In this document: piece by piece, positions 23,764 through 40,686 of the stretch
Layout of the letters: each line of letters begins with the position of its first letter
How positions within the stretch are numbered: the stretch's first letter is position 1
Source: an uncultured Gammaproteobacteria bacterium
GTDB taxonomy: Bacteria; Patescibacteriota; Microgenomatia; Levybacterales; UBA12049
DNA: 64,000 nucleotides
Direction of reading: 5' to 3'
NCBI GenBank assembly: GCA_964537895.1
Contig: CAZIDK010000002.1
Location: 82,684-146,683 of the forward strand
Made by a program: the position numbers and the translations under genes
Notes under the pieces: generated by a model
Databases searched by the model: none
The model's input: only the letters and a program-made list of their open reading frames with translations
What the model was told of the DNA's origin: nothing

Positions 23764-24651
23764 ATGAACATGTATTCTGCTATTTCTGCAAATAAAAACA
23801 AAACATGGATAATAATGTTGTTATTTGTGGTGGTAATAACAACTATGGTTTATGTATTTAGTCAAGCGCTCGGATACAGCGGATACAGTCTTGCCGGAAT
23901 AGCGCTGGTACTTGCCGGGTTAACAAGTGTCGGAAGCTATTACTACTCCGACAAGTTAGTGCTTGCAACCACTAACGCAAAGCAAATAAAAAAAGAAGAT
24001 TTCCCAAATTATTATAAAACCGTAGAAAACCTGTGCATTGGAGCAGGACTTCCTATGCCAAAAGTTTACATTATGGAAGAAGCTTCTCCAAATGCCTTTG
24101 CAACAGGCAGGGACCCAAAGCACGCTGTAGTCTGCGCAACTACAGGGCTTTTAAAAACACTTAACGACGCAGAACTTGAGGGTGTTATTAGCCACGAACT
24201 TTCCCATATAAAAAATTACGATATCCGTGTACTCGGAATTGTTGCAATTCTTGTCGGATTTATTGCAATTCTTTCTGATCTTTTCATAAGAGCATCTTTT
24301 TATTCCGATTCTAGGGAAAACAAAGGAAATACGATATTTTTAATTTTGGCAATTGTATTTGCTATTCTTTCGCCAATTGCCGCGATATTAATTCAAACCG
24401 CAATTTCCAGGAAGAGAGAGTACTTAGCAGATGCTTCAGGCGTACTCCTAACAAGATATCCGGAAGCATTAGCCTCGGCTTTAGAAAAGCTTGCAAAAGA
24501 TAAAACTGCACCAAAAAATGCAAGTAATGCTACTGCTCATTTATACATCGAGAATCCATTTGACAATAAAAAAGTAAAAAATTTCTTTACAGGTCTTTTT
24601 AACACCCACCCGCCGCTTGAAGACAGAATACGAATCCTCCGTTCGATGTGA
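23764..24651 (+). CDS. htpX: HtpX-like M48 zinc metalloprotease
   Basis: HELSHIKNYD (HExxH), a downstream E, four TM segments. The lemA-htpX pairing is a known conserved neighbourhood. Confidence 0.8.
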   Translation: MNMYSAISANKNKTWIIMLLFVVVITTMVYVFSQALGYSGYSLAGIALVLAGLTSVGSYYYSDKLVLATTNAKQIKKEDFPNYYKTVENLCIGAGLPMPKVYIMEEASPNAFATGRDPKHAVVCATTGLLKTLNDAELEGVISHELSHIKNYDIRVLGIVAILVGFIAILSDLFIRASFYSDSRENKGNTIFLILAIVFAILSPIAAILIQTAISRKREYLADASGVLLTRYPEALASALEKLAKDKTAPKNASNATAHLYIENPFDNKKVKNFFTGLFNTHPPLEDRIRILRSM

Positions 24652-24661
24652 TGCAAAGCAT

Positions 24662-24728
24662 CATCCTGAGCTTATCGCACATTCGACATAGCTCAGTGCG
24701 ATACTGAGTTTAGCGAATGTATCGAAGG
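24662..24728. repeat. Nested-hairpin repeat element, copy 1 (REP/MITE-like or small structured RNA)
   Basis: cctgagcttatcgcACATTCGacatagCTCAGTgcgatACTGAGtttagCGAATGTatcgaagg. A central perfect 6 bp hairpin sits inside a 7 bp outer stem. The reverse complement of 35461-35530 matches it at about 85% identity. Confidence 0.6.
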
Positions 24729-24737
24729 ATAAATAAT

Positions 24738-26018
24738 ATGATCAATGTCTTGATAATTCTAATCGGAAAGGTTCTCTCTTTTTTGAGTAAAAATTTAAAC
24801 TTGGGACATGGATCAACTTGGCCGGGACATATTGCCCTAAAGATAAATAAAAATTTTATAAAGCAAACAATTGGGTCAAAAACCAAAGTCGTTCTCGTAG
24901 CAGGAACAAATGGAAAAACTACCACTTCTGCTCTTACTTGTCACATTCTTAAACAGAATGGATTTTCGGTAGTTCAAAATAAAAGCGGTGCTAACCTACT
25001 TAACGGAGCGGCATCAGCTATTATTCAAGGAATTAGACCATTTTCATCAAAGACTGACCAAGACTATTTGATTTTGGAAGTTGATGAAAACAATCTGCCT
25101 CTTGTTATAAACCAAACAAATCCATCCTATATCATTGCATTAGACTTGTTCCGTGATCAACTCGATAGATATGGTGAGGTTTATTCAATTATTAATAAAT
25201 GGAAAAATGCTTTTGAAAAACTTAGTAACAATAGTACGTTAATTCTAAATGCCGATGATCCTCAGGTTTCTTACCTTGGTAAAAATCTGAAATCAAAGGT
25301 AATATACTTTGGACTTAATGAAAATGATCAAGAAATAATTGAACACGGAGCAGATTCTATTTTCTGTCCAAAATGTCAACATCTGCTGGATTATAAATCT
25401 ATTACTTTTTCCCATCTTGGGAATTGGTTTTGCTCAAACTGCAATGAAAAAAGACCATCTCTAAATATTTCAAAATTTGAGATTTATCCCATTCCCGGCA
25501 CTTATAATAAGTATAATACTCTAGCTGCAATTTTATTAACAACTGATCAAGGATTATCTGGCAAGCAAATAACTGAAGCATTTAAATCCTTCAAGCCTGC
25601 TTTCGGAAGACAGGAAGAGTTCGAGGTTAATGGTAAAAAAACAAAAATATTTTTATCAAAAAATCCTACTAGCTTTAATGAGTCGCTATCAACTATTTCA
25701 GACCTAAACGCTAAAAATTTATTAATCGTTCTTAACGACAGAGTTCCTGATGGATTGGATATATCATGGATATGGGATACAAACACATCTCTTTTAGGAA
25801 ATATTTCAAACATTACAGTTTCCGGTGATAGGGCCTACGACATGGCTTTGAGAATCAAGTATTCCGGGCTTAAAAATTTCCATATTTTTGAAGATCTTTC
25901 AGATGCGATAAAACAATCTTTAGAGAAAACAAAATTCGGCGAAACACTATTTATTCTTCCTACATATTCCGCAATGCTTGAAACAAGAAAAATATTAACC
26001 GGCAAAAAAATATTATGA
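24738..26018 (+). CDS. murT: MurT-like lipid II isoglutamine synthetase, ligase subunit (Mur ligase domain, Cys4 ribbon, DUF1727)
   Basis: VVLVAGTNGKTTTSAL P-loop, the Cys4 ribbon CPKCQ...CSNC, and the C-terminal DUF1727-like region. Start taken at MINVL (SD aagga 7 nt upstream); the longer ORF would overlap the repeat element. Confidence 0.6.
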   Translation: MINVLIILIGKVLSFLSKNLNLGHGSTWPGHIALKINKNFIKQTIGSKTKVVLVAGTNGKTTTSALTCHILKQNGFSVVQNKSGANLLNGAASAIIQGIRPFSSKTDQDYLILEVDENNLPLVINQTNPSYIIALDLFRDQLDRYGEVYSIINKWKNAFEKLSNNSTLILNADDPQVSYLGKNLKSKVIYFGLNENDQEIIEHGADSIFCPKCQHLLDYKSITFSHLGNWFCSNCNEKRPSLNISKFEIYPIPGTYNKYNTLAAILLTTDQGLSGKQITEAFKSFKPAFGRQEEFEVNGKKTKIFLSKNPTSFNESLSTISDLNAKNLLIVLNDRVPDGLDISWIWDTNTSLLGNISNITVSGDRAYDMALRIKYSGLKNFHIFEDLSDAIKQSLEKTKFGETLFILPTYSAMLETRKILTGKKIL

Positions 26019-34958: not shown

Positions 34959-35456
34959 ATGGAAATATTTACAAAATTTGGGTTTGATCCCGTTATGCTC
35001 GGTGCTCAAATCATAAATTTTCTAATCATTTTTTATATACTAAAAAGGTTTTTATATAAACCTATCCTTGAAATGCTTAAAAAACGCAAGGATGCCATTG
35101 AAAAGGGAGTAAAAGATGCGGAGGAAGGCAGGCTAACATTAGAAAAGGCGCTGGAAGAAGAAAAAAAGATTTTAAGAAAAGCGCAGGAACAATCAAAAAA
35201 AATTATTGATGACGCCGCGAGTCAAGCCATTCTAATAGCAAACGATATTGGGCAAAATTCAAGAAAACAAGCGGAAAAAATACTTGATGATGCAAAAACT
35301 CAAATCCAGCAAGAAACAAAAGAAGCGGAAAAAAGATTATCACAAGATGTTAGTAAATTATCCATTGAGTTTCTTAGTACATCCTTAAAGGAAATTTTTG
35401 GAGAAAAAGAAGAAAAATTAATAATAAAAAAGACATTAAAACAACTAAAAAAATAG
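34959..35456 (+). CDS. atpF: F0F1 ATP synthase subunit b
   Basis: Single N-terminal TM helix followed by a long charged helix. Confidence 0.75.
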   Translation: MEIFTKFGFDPVMLGAQIINFLIIFYILKRFLYKPILEMLKKRKDAIEKGVKDAEEGRLTLEKALEEEKKILRKAQEQSKKIIDDAASQAILIANDIGQNSRKQAEKILDDAKTQIQQETKEAEKRLSQDVSKLSIEFLSTSLKEIFGEKEEKLIIKKTLKQLKK

Positions 35457-35460
35457 TATG

Positions 35461-35530
35461 ACCCATTCGATACGTTCGATAAACTCAGTATCGCACTGAG
35501 CAAAATCGAATGTGCGACGTTGTTCAGGGT
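35461..35530. repeat. Nested-hairpin repeat element, copy 2, in inverted orientation relative to copy 1
   Basis: Reverse complement reads gaccctgaacaacgtcgcACATTCGattttgCTCAGTgcgatACTGAGtttatCGAACGTatcgaatgggt. The central 17 nt is identical to copy 1, and the outer stem is kept by a G-U-compatible change. Confidence 0.6.
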
Positions 35531-35551
35531 CATAATGAGTAAAATCGAATT

Positions 35552-35917
35552 ATGACAAAAAAATATATTAAAAAAATAGCCTTGGCAAGTTATGCAAAAA
35601 ATGAATTGGATTCTAAAAAAGTTAGAAAAATCGCCGGCTTTTTAACACGAAATAATCTTAAACAATACATAAAAGAATTAAAATTGTTGGAAAGTCAAAA
35701 AACTATTACAATTTTAACGCCGTCATTTAGCAAAACAACGCAAAATGATATAAAAAAACAATTTGCTAAAGTTTTCGTTGGTAAAAAGATTATAATAGAT
35801 AGTGATCCGTCTTTAATTCTTGGCGTAAAAGTAATAAATAACGATTTAATTTATAACTTGAGTTTAAAAAATACACTTGATAATCTAAATATGCATATAA
35901 ATGAACAGTATGATTGA
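35552..35917 (+). CDS. atpH: F0F1 ATP synthase subunit delta (short form)
   Basis: The C-terminal block DSDPSLILGVKVINNDLIYNLSLKNTL matches the OSCP/delta signature. Confidence 0.65.
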   Translation: MTKKYIKKIALASYAKNELDSKKVRKIAGFLTRNNLKQYIKELKLLESQKTITILTPSFSKTTQNDIKKQFAKVFVGKKIIIDSDPSLILGVKVINNDLIYNLSLKNTLDNLNMHINEQYD

Positions 35918-37433: not shown

Positions 37434-37499
37434 ATCCTGCACTTTTTCGCAGCATAATATTGTGTTTAAACGAACAAGTAGCAGGTTAAAGTGCAGGAT
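37434..37499. promoter_or_regulatory. 12 bp perfect inverted repeat between atpA and atpG
   Basis: ATCCTGCACTTT ... AAAGTGCAGGAT, separated by about 42 nt. Confidence 0.3.
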
Positions 37500-39764: not shown

Positions 39765-39827
39765 ATCCTTCACTTTTATGCTAAACTTATTTGCTAACAA
39801 TTTTTTAAGAAAGAAAGTGAAGGATAA

Positions 39828-40487: not shown

Positions 40488-40559
40488 GCCAACATAGCTC
40501 AGTGGCAGAGCAGCTGTTTCGTAAACAGCAGGTCGTTGGTTCGATCCCAACTGTTGGCT
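40488..40559 (+). tRNA. tRNA-Thr (anticodon CGT)
   Basis: GCCAACA/TGTTGGC acceptor, D-stem GCTC/GAGC, anticodon stem GCTGT/ACAGC with loop TTCGTAA, T-arm GTTGG-TTCGATC-CCAAC. Confidence 0.8.
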
Positions 40560-40582
40560 CAGGCAAGCAAGATTTACTGGGA

Positions 40583-40621
40583 TAAACAGCAGGTCCTCGG
40601 TTCAATCCCGAGAGACGGCTC
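40583..40621 (+). pseudogene. tRNA 3'-half-like fragment 1
   Basis: aacagcaggtc matches tRNA-Thr from position 38 on. The T-arm CTCGG-TTCAATC-CCGAG has compensatory changes. Preceded by gatttactgggata. Confidence 0.5.
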
Positions 40622-40647
40622 AATAAACGGCTGAATTTACCGGGATA

Positions 40648-40686
40648 AACACTAGGTCGCAGGTTCGATTCCCGCCATCGGCTCTG
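40648..40686 (+). pseudogene. tRNA 3'-half-like fragment 2
   Basis: aacactaggtc, then T-arm GCAGG-TTCGATT-CCCGC and an acceptor-like 3' end catcggctc. Preceded by gaatttaccgggata. Confidence 0.45.

What the first reader, a model, noticed from the sequence alone, without database searches (positions are those of the whole stretch)
35461..35530. Second copy of the nested-hairpin element splitting the atp operon between atpF and atpH
Same element as at 24662-24728, but in the opposite orientation. It occupies almost the entire atpF-atpH spacer, where most bacteria have a few bases or an overlap. It could act as an internal attenuator or processing site that sets the stoichiometry between the F0 and F1 parts, or it could be a neutral insertion. 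A short direct repeat aaaatcgaat occurs twice here (35503-35512 and 35541-35550).
Basis: seen in the sequence. Interest (0 to 1): 0.5.

Follow-up and report, generated by a model that had tools for sequence, protein, structure and literature searches.

The report
Nested mobile hairpin at atpH start
The 95-base gap between atpF and atpH holds a copy of a small, self-nesting hairpin repeat that is scattered through low-GC groundwater bacteria, lands on start codons and rebuilds them, so it is an insertion and not a conserved atp-operon regulator.

Summary
The atpF-atpH spacer (35457-35551) holds a nested hairpin, and its 47-nt core recurs at 24675-24721 on the other strand. These are the only two copies in the window (covariance-model scores 81 and 83 bits).

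It is not an atp-specific feature. Twelve related Patescibacteria have atpF-atpH spacers of -4 to +5 nt. Only the closest relative has an element at this site, with a different interior.

A 19-mer from the core found 50 genuine copies in metagenome contigs. They sit in front of unrelated genes (recO, PBP, smpB, rplE, corA and others), usually with the start codon at a fixed offset.

The anatomy is an outer ~45-nt hairpin unit (TTCGA..CTCAG-apex-CTGAG..TCGAA) inserted after the ATGAC of atpH. A second TATGAC recreates the start codon. A homologous 47-nt inner unit is nested directly after TTCGA.

In both layers the apex is the reverse complement of the unit's joined ends plus the flanking bases. 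This holds across many variant sequences (0 of 2000 permutations reach the observed value).

Presence/absence pairs, nesting in either arm, and an in-frame copy inside a nuclease gene all indicate a non-autonomous mobile element. The mobilising enzyme is unknown. A regulatory side-effect on atpH translation is possible but unsupported.

The parts
35454..35456 (+). atpF stop codon TAG
   Evidence: ORF 34959-35456; sequence
35457..35464 (+). Left junction J_L, TATGACCC. It contains the ancestral atpH start ATG (35458-35460) plus the first bases (CC/CCC) of the outer unit, and it pairs with the apex (helix P1, 8 bp).
   Evidence: Relatives read TAA(A)T-ATGACAAAAAAA at the empty site. P1 appears in the minimum-free-energy fold. 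P1 = 8 bp.
35466..35470 (+). TTCGA, first word of the 5' arm of the outer unit. The inner unit is inserted directly after it.
   Evidence: TTCGA-like in 39 of 42 copies
35471..35517 (+). Inner 47-nt unit (IE): TAC-GTTCGA-TAAA-CTCAG-TATCGCA-CTGAG-CAAAA-TCGAA-TGTGCGA. Its apex GTATCGCAC (35488-35496) is the reverse complement of both of its junctions, CGA|TAC and GTG|CGA.
   Evidence: Model R1 scores 81 bits. Alignment of 42 copies. Unit parse.
35518..35527 (+). Rest of the outer 5' arm: CGTTG plus TTCAG, a degenerate CTCAG word
35527..35536 (+). Outer apex GGGTCATAAT, the reverse complement of ATT+ATGA+CCC (last bases of the unit, flank, first bases of the unit). It can pair with J_L (P1) or with J_R (H3).
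   Evidence: H3 is in the minimum-free-energy fold of the longer context.
35536..35549 (+). Outer 3' arm TGAGTAAAATCGAA, with a weak Shine-Dalgarno-like GAG (GAGG or GGAG in other copies)
35550..35556 (+). Right junction J_R, TTATGAC. It holds the second copy of TATGAC and the present atpH start ATG at 35552-35554.
   Evidence: ORF 35552-35917. Direct repeat of 6 nt.
24675..24721 (-). Second copy of the inner unit (IE), reverse-complemented relative to the flanking genes. It is nested in the 3' arm (CTGAG 24666-24670 .. TCGAA 24722-24726) of an outer half-unit bounded by ATCC (24663-24666) and GGAT (24727-24730). This lies between the htpX-like stop (24649-24651) and the murT-like ATG (24738).
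   Evidence: (83 bits). Orthologous copy in L054.

Best explanation
The atpF-atpH spacer holds a copy of a dispersed, non-coding, self-nesting hairpin repeat, which I take to be a small non-autonomous mobile element.

What is shown.
- An outer unit of about 45 nt has the form f-TTCGA-n-CTCAG-apex-CTGAG-n'-TCGAA-l. It sits immediately after the ATGAC that opens atpH. A second TATGAC at its 3' end recreates the start codon.
- The site was already occupied in the common ancestor with the closest relative (L006).
- A homologous 47-nt inner unit lies directly after the TTCGA word of the outer unit's 5' arm. In the 24.7-kb copy it lies in the 3' arm instead, which is why the two copies have opposite orientations.
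- In every layer the apical loop is the reverse complement of the unit's own last bases, plus the flanking bases, plus its first bases. An integrated copy can therefore form three mutually exclusive helices: left junction with apex, apex with right junction, and arm with arm.

What is inferred.
- Units move as folded single strands through an unidentified enzyme supplied in trans.
- The apex acts as a built-in guide or template for the junctions.
- Copies survive mainly where they rebuild a start codon, because insertions elsewhere in these compact genomes break genes.
- For the atp operon the element is a tolerated insertion. It replaces a stop/start junction of 1-5 nt with a structured 95-nt leader and may dampen atpH initiation. 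It is not a conserved operon regulator.
For: Family and distribution. A 19-mer from the core finds 51 metagenome stretches, 50 of which share the flanking architecture. The model scores them 69-86 bits.

Empty and filled sites.
- Twelve relatives have an atpF-atpH spacer of -4 to +5 nt reading TAA(A)T-ATGACAAAAAAA. The window and L006 share both junctions but differ inside.
- L029 and L060 differ by a clean 39-nt insertion.
- L040 and L053 carry the same outer unit at orthologous genes, with the inner unit in opposite arms.

Association with start codons. The start codon lies +64 to +69 nt or -24/-25 nt from the core in about 24 loci. The downstream genes are unrelated: RecO, PBP, CsoR-like, P-type ATPase, ABC, SmpB, L5, aminotransferase, CorA.

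Apex rule.
- In 21 outer units the mean P1 is 7.2 bp and the mean H3 is 5.7 bp. With apexes permuted the means are 4.2 and 2.9, and 0 of 2000 permutations reach the observed values.
- At least 7 variants of l and 4 of f are each matched by the apex.
- Six further units with unrelated apexes obey the rule.

DNA-level behaviour.
- A 48-nt unit flanked by TTAA sits in frame inside an SNase-domain ORF.
- The inner unit occurs in both orientations relative to transcription.
- Pairing decays at orthologous loci (L028 and L032 versus L070).
- Both strands fold about equally well.
- Logan contigs from three runs break inside the element, as expected for a repeat.
Against: - No transposase or other candidate enzyme was found in 670 kb of held DNA. 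The queries were recalled from memory, so this test is weak.
- Copy number is modest. The window has 2 copies in 64 kb, and a 720-kb contig yielded one exact 19-mer match.
- Direct repeats at the ends range from 0 to 9 nt or more, so there is no classical fixed target-site duplication.
- Some copies are half-units only.
- Actual movement has not been observed, and gene conversion between copies could produce some of the presence/absence patterns.
- The element has persisted at the atpH start in two lineages, which neutrality allows but does not predict.
Confidence: 0.8

Rival explanations
1. The element is, or has become, a cis-acting RNA switch that tunes atpH (delta, 1 copy per complex) relative to atpF (b, 2 copies). 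The apex GGGUCAUAAU pairs either with the decoy start (P1, real start free) or with the real start (H3, start sequestered). Ribosomes terminating at the atpF stop, 1 nt upstream of P1, would shift the balance.
For: - The two states are nearly isoenergetic: -30.5 kcal/mol for P1 and -31.1 for H3. In the ensemble of the longer context the start codon is about 90% paired.
- The closest relative keeps an element at the same site.
- Two other spacers of the same operon hold hairpins that pair a Shine-Dalgarno-like AGGA with a segment starting directly at the upstream stop codon.
- From my own knowledge: structure-mediated translational coupling is established for E. coli atpHA.
Against: - The element is absent from 12 relatives with the same operon order.
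- The same architecture precedes unrelated genes and lies inside a coding region.
- The pairings decay at orthologous loci.
- The inner-unit stems show no covariation, and that unit occurs antisense in half of the loci.
- No terminator-like site is present.
Confidence: 0.12
2. The palindromic core (CTCAG-N7-CTGAG flanked by TTCGA/TCGAA) is a double-stranded DNA operator for a dimeric DNA-binding protein, and the copies define a regulon.
For: - The core has 5-7-5 dyad symmetry and is very strongly conserved across diverged hosts.
- It lies within 25-70 nt of start codons in either orientation.
Against: - One copy lies inside an operon between translationally adjacent genes.
- The nested architecture, the clean presence/absence insertions and the apex-junction rule are not explained by an operator.
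- The downstream genes have no common theme.
Confidence: 0.03
3. The unit is removed at the RNA level, like a very small intron. The apex would act as an internal guide that aligns both junctions, so that the original AUGAC... reading is restored in the mRNA.
For: - The apex is complementary to both junctions.
- Short direct repeats at the ends would allow precise excision.
- One unit is tolerated inside an SNase gene.
Against: - No known ribozyme or intron family matches.
- The in-gene copy is exactly 48 nt and in frame, which would not be needed if it were spliced out.
- Most copies sit where excision is unnecessary.
- About 45 nt is far below any known self-splicing RNA.
Confidence: 0.03

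Closest known systems
REP / REPIN elements mobilised by RAYT transposases (Pseudomonas, E. coli; PMC3116915 was listed but not read, so the properties given are from my own knowledge)
   Same: Short, non-coding, extragenic palindromes that form hairpins, are dispersed in many copies and depend on a factor supplied in trans.
   Different: - No GTAG-type conserved tetranucleotide.
- No RAYT gene found (a weak test).
- Units nest inside each other.
- The apex is complementary to the junctions.
- Copies sit exactly on start codons.
- Copy number appears low to moderate.
IS200/IS605-family single-strand transposition (guide sequences pair with the cleavage and target sites; insertion 3' of a fixed tetra- or pentanucleotide; no target duplication). 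From my own knowledge.
   Same: - An internal sequence is complementary to both element/flank junctions.
- The inner unit is always found 3' of TTCGA.
- Its fold is asymmetric between strands, with an invariant T.G pair.
- There is no fixed-length target duplication.
   Different: - One hairpin spans the whole element instead of two different subterminal hairpins.
- The guide-like segment is the apical loop, not a segment at the foot of a hairpin.
- No TnpA was found.
- Flank repeats of up to 9 nt occur.
Bacterial MITEs such as Neisseria Correia elements (from my own knowledge)
   Same: Small elements with terminal inverted repeats, located in intergenic regions and co-transcribed with neighbouring genes, where they can alter mRNA structure and expression.
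   Different: - MITEs have a fixed target-site duplication (TA for Correia) and derive from an IS with the same ends.
- Here the end repeats range from 0 to 9 nt or more, and no parent IS is known.
Rickettsia palindromic elements (RPE); mitochondrial GC clusters and double-hairpin elements (from my own knowledge)
   Same: Very small selfish hairpins that spread within compact genomes, can nest, and can sit in frame inside protein-coding genes (compare L045).
   Different: - Unrelated sequences and hosts.
- As far as I know, neither the apex-junction rule nor rebuilding of start codons has been described for them.
Structure-mediated translational coupling in the E. coli atpHA mRNA (from my own knowledge)
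   Same: An mRNA structure within an atp operon that masks a downstream initiation region.
   Different: That structure is a conserved part of the operon. This one is a family-wide repeat missing from most relatives.

Membership tests
REP/REPIN (RAYT-dependent) | Short imperfect palindrome, extragenic, repeated | tested here: met
   Hairpin z-score about -4. 50 copies in metagenome contigs.
REP/REPIN (RAYT-dependent) | Linked RAYT (Y1 HUH) gene in the genome | tested here: inconclusive
   tblastn with three Y1-transposase sequences recalled from memory found no hit below E = 0.1 in 670 kb. No whole genome was available.
REP/REPIN (RAYT-dependent) | Hundreds of copies per genome | tested here: inconclusive
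   Two copies in 64 kb, up to 4 units in 14 kb of L050, and one exact 19-mer match in a 720-kb contig.
MITE derived from a DDE transposon | Terminal inverted repeats | tested here: met
   Arms TTCGA..CTCAG and CTGAG..TCGAA.
MITE derived from a DDE transposon | Target-site duplication of fixed length | tested here: not met
   End repeats of 0-1, 3, 4, 5, 6, 7 and 8-9 nt in different copies.
IS200/IS605-type single-strand element | Insertion 3' of a specific short sequence | tested here: met
   The inner unit follows TTCGA in 39 of 42 copies, in either arm of the outer unit.
IS200/IS605-type single-strand element | Two different subterminal hairpins, each with an adjacent guide tetranucleotide | tested here: not met
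   A single hairpin spans the unit, and the complementarity to the junctions lies in the apical loop.
Integron attC site | Follows cassette ORFs in an array next to intI | tested here: not met
   Copies lie 5' of core genes (atpH, murT, rplE, smpB and others). There is no array and no integrase-like ORF in the window.
Riboswitch or other conserved cis-regulatory RNA | Conserved at orthologous positions, compensatory changes in stems, coherent set of regulated genes | tested here: not met
   Absent in 12 relatives. No Rfam match. Stems are invariant, with no covariation. Downstream genes are unrelated.
Intrinsic terminator / attenuator | GC-rich hairpin followed by a T run | tested here: not met
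   No terminator-like site between 35457 and 35551. The hairpin is followed by AATGAGTAAAATCG.

The most novel reading that the evidence does not exclude
These units are a previously undescribed class of ~45-48-nt mobile hairpins.

The apical loop would serve as a built-in guide or template for the unit's own junctions and for the target. Either insertion is directed by base pairing, or the end sequences are re-copied from the apex at each insertion. The second option would explain why so many variant ends are perfectly matched by the apex.

If so, this would be the smallest known guide-bearing mobile DNA. It would also be one that specifically colonises start codons while supplying a new ATG and a Shine-Dalgarno-like motif.
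Probability: 0.3. Interest if true: 0.8.

Novelty: new variant of a known kind. Interest (0 to 1): 0.55.

Why it matters
- It removes an attractive but wrong reading, that this is an atp-operon stoichiometry device. It also shows that in these streamlined genomes the stop/start junctions of core operons are being colonised by tiny hairpin insertions: three in this atp operon alone.
- The family has a simple, testable sequence rule (apex = reverse complement of the joined ends plus flank). The rule points to a pairing-based or templated insertion mechanism carried out by an unknown enzyme.
- Such repeats break assemblies of Patescibacteria genomes and add spurious alternative starts and small ORFs, so recognising them improves annotation.
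- If the guide idea is right, the system would be a minimal, reprogrammable DNA-insertion module.

Tried and rejected
- Rfam, at gathering thresholds on the whole window and in permissive mode on 35400-35600: only chance-level hits.
- Terminator and promoter scan of the atp operon: nothing in the element.
- Covariation in the inner-unit stems: none, because the stems are invariant. No RNA-structure claim is made from it.
- Search for HUH (IS200, ISHp608, RAYT) transposases in all held DNA: nothing. The queries were recalled from memory, so this is weak.
- The window ORFs, read by eye, show no transposase, integrase or reverse transcriptase.
- Viral contigs:
  - The 17-mer gave 3 unrelated chance hits.
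  - Two generic unit patterns gave 6 stretches, about the number I estimate from chance alone. Only one (L079) obeys the apex rule.
- Phage and plasmid collections: no match.
- Literature: no paper contains the core sequences, and none describes MITE-like repeats in the Candidate Phyla Radiation.
- A tRNA-derived origin (the TTCGA and GCTCAG words resemble T- and D-arm motifs) was considered and dropped. No tRNA-model hit appeared even at E <= 10.
- A fixed target-site duplication model was dropped because the repeat lengths vary.
- Growth of the palindrome by templated correction around the inner hairpin was considered. It does not fit, because an asymmetric 10-nt loop separates the inner stem from P1.

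Full report
**1. The observation**

The window is low-GC (35.8%). It carries an atp operon in the order atpB-E-F-H-A-G-D-C on the + strand. atpF ends with TAG at 35454-35456 and atpH starts at 35552, so the spacer is 95 nt.

The spacer folds into a nested hairpin of -30.5 kcal/mol, with z about -4 against dinucleotide shuffles. Its core recurs at 24662-24728 on the opposite strand:
- a 21-mer is identical, with none expected by chance;
- 65 nt align at 83%.

A covariance model built later from 42 family members scores these two sites 81 and 83 bits. Nothing else in the window scores above 19 bits.

The short repeat AAAATCGAAT is real but lies at 35502-35511 and 35541-35550, and two matches are not unusual on their own.

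**2. Not a feature of atp operons**

A protein-guided scan of one genome per species found 15 loci encoding AtpF relatives. Those with informative titles are named Patescibacteria, Levybacteria or Microgenomates.

- In 12 of them the atpF-atpH spacer is -4 to +5 nt and reads TAA(A)T-ATGACAAAAAAA. One further locus has an unrelated 31-nt spacer.
- Only the closest relative (L006; AtpF 88% and AtpA 95% identical) has a long spacer, of 111 nt.
- L006 shares both junctions with the window..AAAAAAATA[G/A]TATGACCC[A/G]TTCGA.. on the left and ..TCGAAT[T/C]TATGACAAAAAAATATATTA on the right. Its interior is different.

The left junction TAGT-ATGAC is the ancestral stop/start junction. The insertion follows ATGAC, and a second TATGAC at its 3' end now supplies the atpH start.

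**3. A dispersed family**

The 19-mer ACTCAGTATCGCACTGAGC has 51 exact matches in metagenome contigs.

- Fifty share the flanking architecture. The remaining one (L027, 56% GC) is a chance match.
- The host contigs have 33-46% GC, with a median of 37.5%.
- Several contig names suggest groundwater filtrates ('Hain-H51-01um'). The host taxa of these contigs were not determined.
- The family model finds no copy in 253 kb around the atp operons of the 15 relatives. It finds 48 strong and several weaker copies in the metagenome loci.
- There is no match in Rfam, in the phage or plasmid collections, or in the searchable literature.
- Logan contigs from three sequencing runs end or begin inside the atp copy, as expected for a repeated sequence.

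**4. Anatomy**

Reading the copies side by side gives one unit type: f-TTCGR-n(4-5)-CTCAG-apex(7-10)-CTGAG-n'(4-5)-TCGAA-l. Here f and l are the first and last 2-5 bases of the unit.

- *Outer unit.* At atpH it runs TATGA|CCC-A-TTCGA-[inner unit]-CGTTG-TTCAG-GGTCATAA-TGAG-TAAAA-TCGAA-TT|ATGAC.
- *Inner unit.* The inner 47-nt unit (35471-35517) has the same plan: TAC-G-TTCGA-TAAA-CTCAG-TATCGCA-CTGAG-CAAAA-TCGAA-TGTG(CGA). It sits directly after a TTCGA word in 39 of 42 copies.
- *Orientation.* The inner unit occurs either in the 5' arm of an outer unit (same strand as the gene, 'class A') or reverse-complemented in the 3' arm ('class B'). This explains the opposite orientations of the two window copies. 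At 24.7 kb the inner unit lies in a 3' arm, ATCC-CTGAG-CTTA-[inner unit, reverse-complemented]-TCGAA-GGAT, 7 nt before the murT-like ATG.

**5. The apex rule**

In both layers the apex is the reverse complement of (last bases of the unit) + (flanking bases) + (first bases of the unit).

- The outer apex GGG-TCAT-AAT matches the junctions ATGA|CCC and ATT|ATGA.
- The inner apex GTA-TCG-CAC matches the junctions CGA|TAC and GTG|CGA.

Support across copies:
- In 21 outer units the left-junction:apex helix averages 7.2 bp and the apex:right-junction helix 5.7 bp. With apexes permuted among copies the averages are 4.2 and 2.9 bp, and 0 of 2000 permutations reach the observed values.
- The matches hold through many variants. 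The last bases include GTA, ATT, ACC, GCA, AAG and CTA. The first bases include CCC, TCC, CAC and TA. The flank includes ATGA, GTGA (through G.U pairing), TCAA and CAAAAA.
- Six further units with unrelated apexes, found only through their arm words, obey the rule as well.

An integrated copy can therefore form three mutually exclusive helices. If the ends were joined, the result would be a ~48-nt single strand in which every segment has a partner.

The inner-unit stems are invariant, so they give no covariation signal. An invariant T.G pair shows that the first and last bases need not pair with each other, while each pairs perfectly with the apex.

**6. Evidence for mobility at the DNA level**

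- *Empty versus filled sites.* The atpF-atpH site is empty in 12 relatives and filled in the window and L006, as described above.
- *Clean insertion.* L029 and L060 are the same locus and differ by a clean 39-nt hairpin insertion after CTCAG.
- *Independent nesting.* L040 and L053 carry the same outer unit in front of orthologous genes. The inner unit is in the 5' arm in L040 and in the 3' arm in L053, and each shows the other's site empty.
- *A copy inside a gene.* A 48-nt unit flanked by TTAA lies in frame inside an ORF whose SNase domain spans it (Pfam residues 74-189). The alignment to staphylococcal nuclease stops at the unit.
- *Decay in place.* At orthologous loci the junction-apex pairing decays: L070 has 8 and 8 bp, L028 has 3 and 9, and L032 has 4 and 2. 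This suggests the complementarity matters for spread, or is set at insertion, and is not maintained in place.
- *No strand preference in folding.* Both strands of the window copies fold about equally well.

Direct repeats at unit ends vary: 0-1, 3, 4, 5, 6, 7 and 8-9 nt. There is therefore no fixed target-site duplication.

**7. Association with start codons**

- The start codon of a long ORF lies +64 to +69 nt from the core in 11 class A loci, and further away when extra modules are nested.
- In 13 class B loci it lies at -24 or -25 nt.
- Viewed in the sense of the gene, all read ..ATGAxCC-[TTCGA..CTCAG]-GGxTCAT-xx-[CTGAG..TCGAA]-xx-ATG. The 3' arm often carries GAGG or GGAG 10-13 nt before the ATG.
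- The genes are unrelated: AtpH, MurT-like, RecO, a penicillin-binding protein, a CsoR-like repressor, a P-type ATPase, an ABC ATPase, SmpB, ribosomal protein L5, an aminotransferase and CorA.

My inference is as follows. Units insert next to short sequences such as (A)TGA, and their own 3' end repeats that sequence. Only insertions that rebuild a start codon, or that fall in the few non-coding bases, escape purifying selection in these compact genomes.

**8. Consequences for the atp operon**

- In a short context the minimum-free-energy fold has the P1 helix (TATGACCC:GGGTCATA) and leaves the atpH start unpaired.
- In a longer context the fold of -31.1 kcal/mol instead has GUCAUAAU:AUUAUGAC, and the start codon is about 90% paired in the ensemble.
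- The two states are thus nearly isoenergetic, and some effect on atpH initiation is plausible.
- The ancestral ATG at 35458 now opens a 13-codon reading frame that ends at TGA 35497-35499 (read directly).
- No terminator-like or promoter-like site lies in the element.

Whether any of this is used by the cell cannot be decided here. The absence from relatives argues against a required role.

**9. Mechanism: shown and inferred**

Shown:
- family membership;
- the nested architecture;
- the apex rule;
- insertion polymorphisms;
- rebuilding of the start codon.

Inferred:
- movement as folded single strands;
- a role of the apex as guide or template.

The many perfectly matched variants of the end bases are more simply explained if the ends are copied from the apex (or the reverse) at each insertion than by repeated double mutations.

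No enzyme was identified. A tblastn search with recalled IS200, ISHp608 and RAYT sequences found nothing in 670 kb, and the window ORFs look like ordinary housekeeping genes.

**10. Comparison with known systems**

The family behaves like REP/REPIN elements, bacterial MITEs, Rickettsia palindromic elements and mitochondrial hairpin elements. Its junction complementarity resembles the guide logic of IS200/IS605.

It fails the defining features that could be tested:
- no fixed target duplication;
- no pair of subterminal hairpins;
- no linked transposase found.

It also fails the tests for a conserved cis-regulatory RNA. I therefore file it as a new variant of the known kind 'small non-autonomous palindromic mobile repeat', with one unusual property (the apex rule) that may point to a new insertion mechanism.

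Noticed in passing
window 37434-37499 and 39765-39825: Two more hairpin insertions lie in the same atp operon. One is ATCCTGCACTTT..42 nt..AAAGTGCAGGAT between atpA and atpG. The other is ATCCTTCACTTT..37 nt..AAAGTGAAGGAT between atpD and atpC. Their 12-bp stems differ by one compensatory change. Each starts directly after the stop TAA and ends ..GGA-TAA just before the ATG, and the 3' arm holds a Shine-Dalgarno-like AGGA. The closest relative L006 has only 'taa att atg' between atpA and atpG, and L007-L015 have atpA-atpG and atpD-atpC spacers of -1 to 9 nt. They look like portable translational-coupling hairpins. Their outer ends resemble the ATCC..GGAT flanks of the 24.7-kb copy.
   Followed up: partly
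window 40488-40685: tRNA-Thr(CGU) at 40488-40560 is followed by two further copies of a tRNA 3' half (40583-40622 and 40646-40685; 80% and 73% identical). Each is preceded by GA(A)TTTACYGGGA. They are not complete tRNAs according to ARAGORN or Rfam. L023 shows a similar run of tRNA 3' halves, with a family unit inserted after ..GCACCA. These may be remnants of repeated integration at the tRNA, or something else.
   Followed up: partly
L045, minus-strand coordinate about 4466 (ORF starting at 486 on the + strand): A 48-nt unit flanked by TTAA is translated in frame (NPFDKLRVNTEQSRSIK) inside an SNase + lamin-tail-domain protein, in the manner of Rickettsia palindromic elements. A near-identical unit at L053 7498 differs by a matched pair of changes, apex ..ATG with end GC versus apex ..ATA with end GTA.
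   Followed up: partly
L006 4920-4950, L060 about 470-510, L042, L030, L050, L053/L056/L069: Other nested mini-hairpins are built from the same words:
- a 30-39-nt type, GCC(G)TTCG..CTCTGAGG..CCTCAGG..TCGAAGA, inserted after CTCAG;
- a loop-less palindrome, CTTCGACTGAGCTCAGTCGAAG;
- a 27-nt hairpin, CCCTGCACCAGACGGTGCGGAG+CTTCG.

They do not obviously follow the apex rule.
   Followed up: no
window 24642-24651 and 24717-24740: The last codons and the stop of the htpX-like gene (..CGT TCG ATG TGA) overlap a TTCGA word of the outer unit. An in-frame ATG at 24717 inside the element gives an alternative, probably spurious, start 21 nt upstream of the murT-like ATG at 24738.
   Followed up: no
L016-L020 (atp loci of more distant relatives): These genomes have other long atp spacers: atpE-atpF 77-108 nt, atpA-atpG 114 nt in L019, and atpD-atpC 54-89 nt. 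Some hold CCTGA/CCGAAGG-type words. Different lineages seem to have different spacers colonised.
   Followed up: no
L001-L005 (Logan contigs of SRR13723393, SRR13723396, SRR13723397): Contigs carrying atpF end at about window 35495, and contigs carrying atpH begin at 35473. Short-read assemblies therefore break inside the inner unit.
   Followed up: yes
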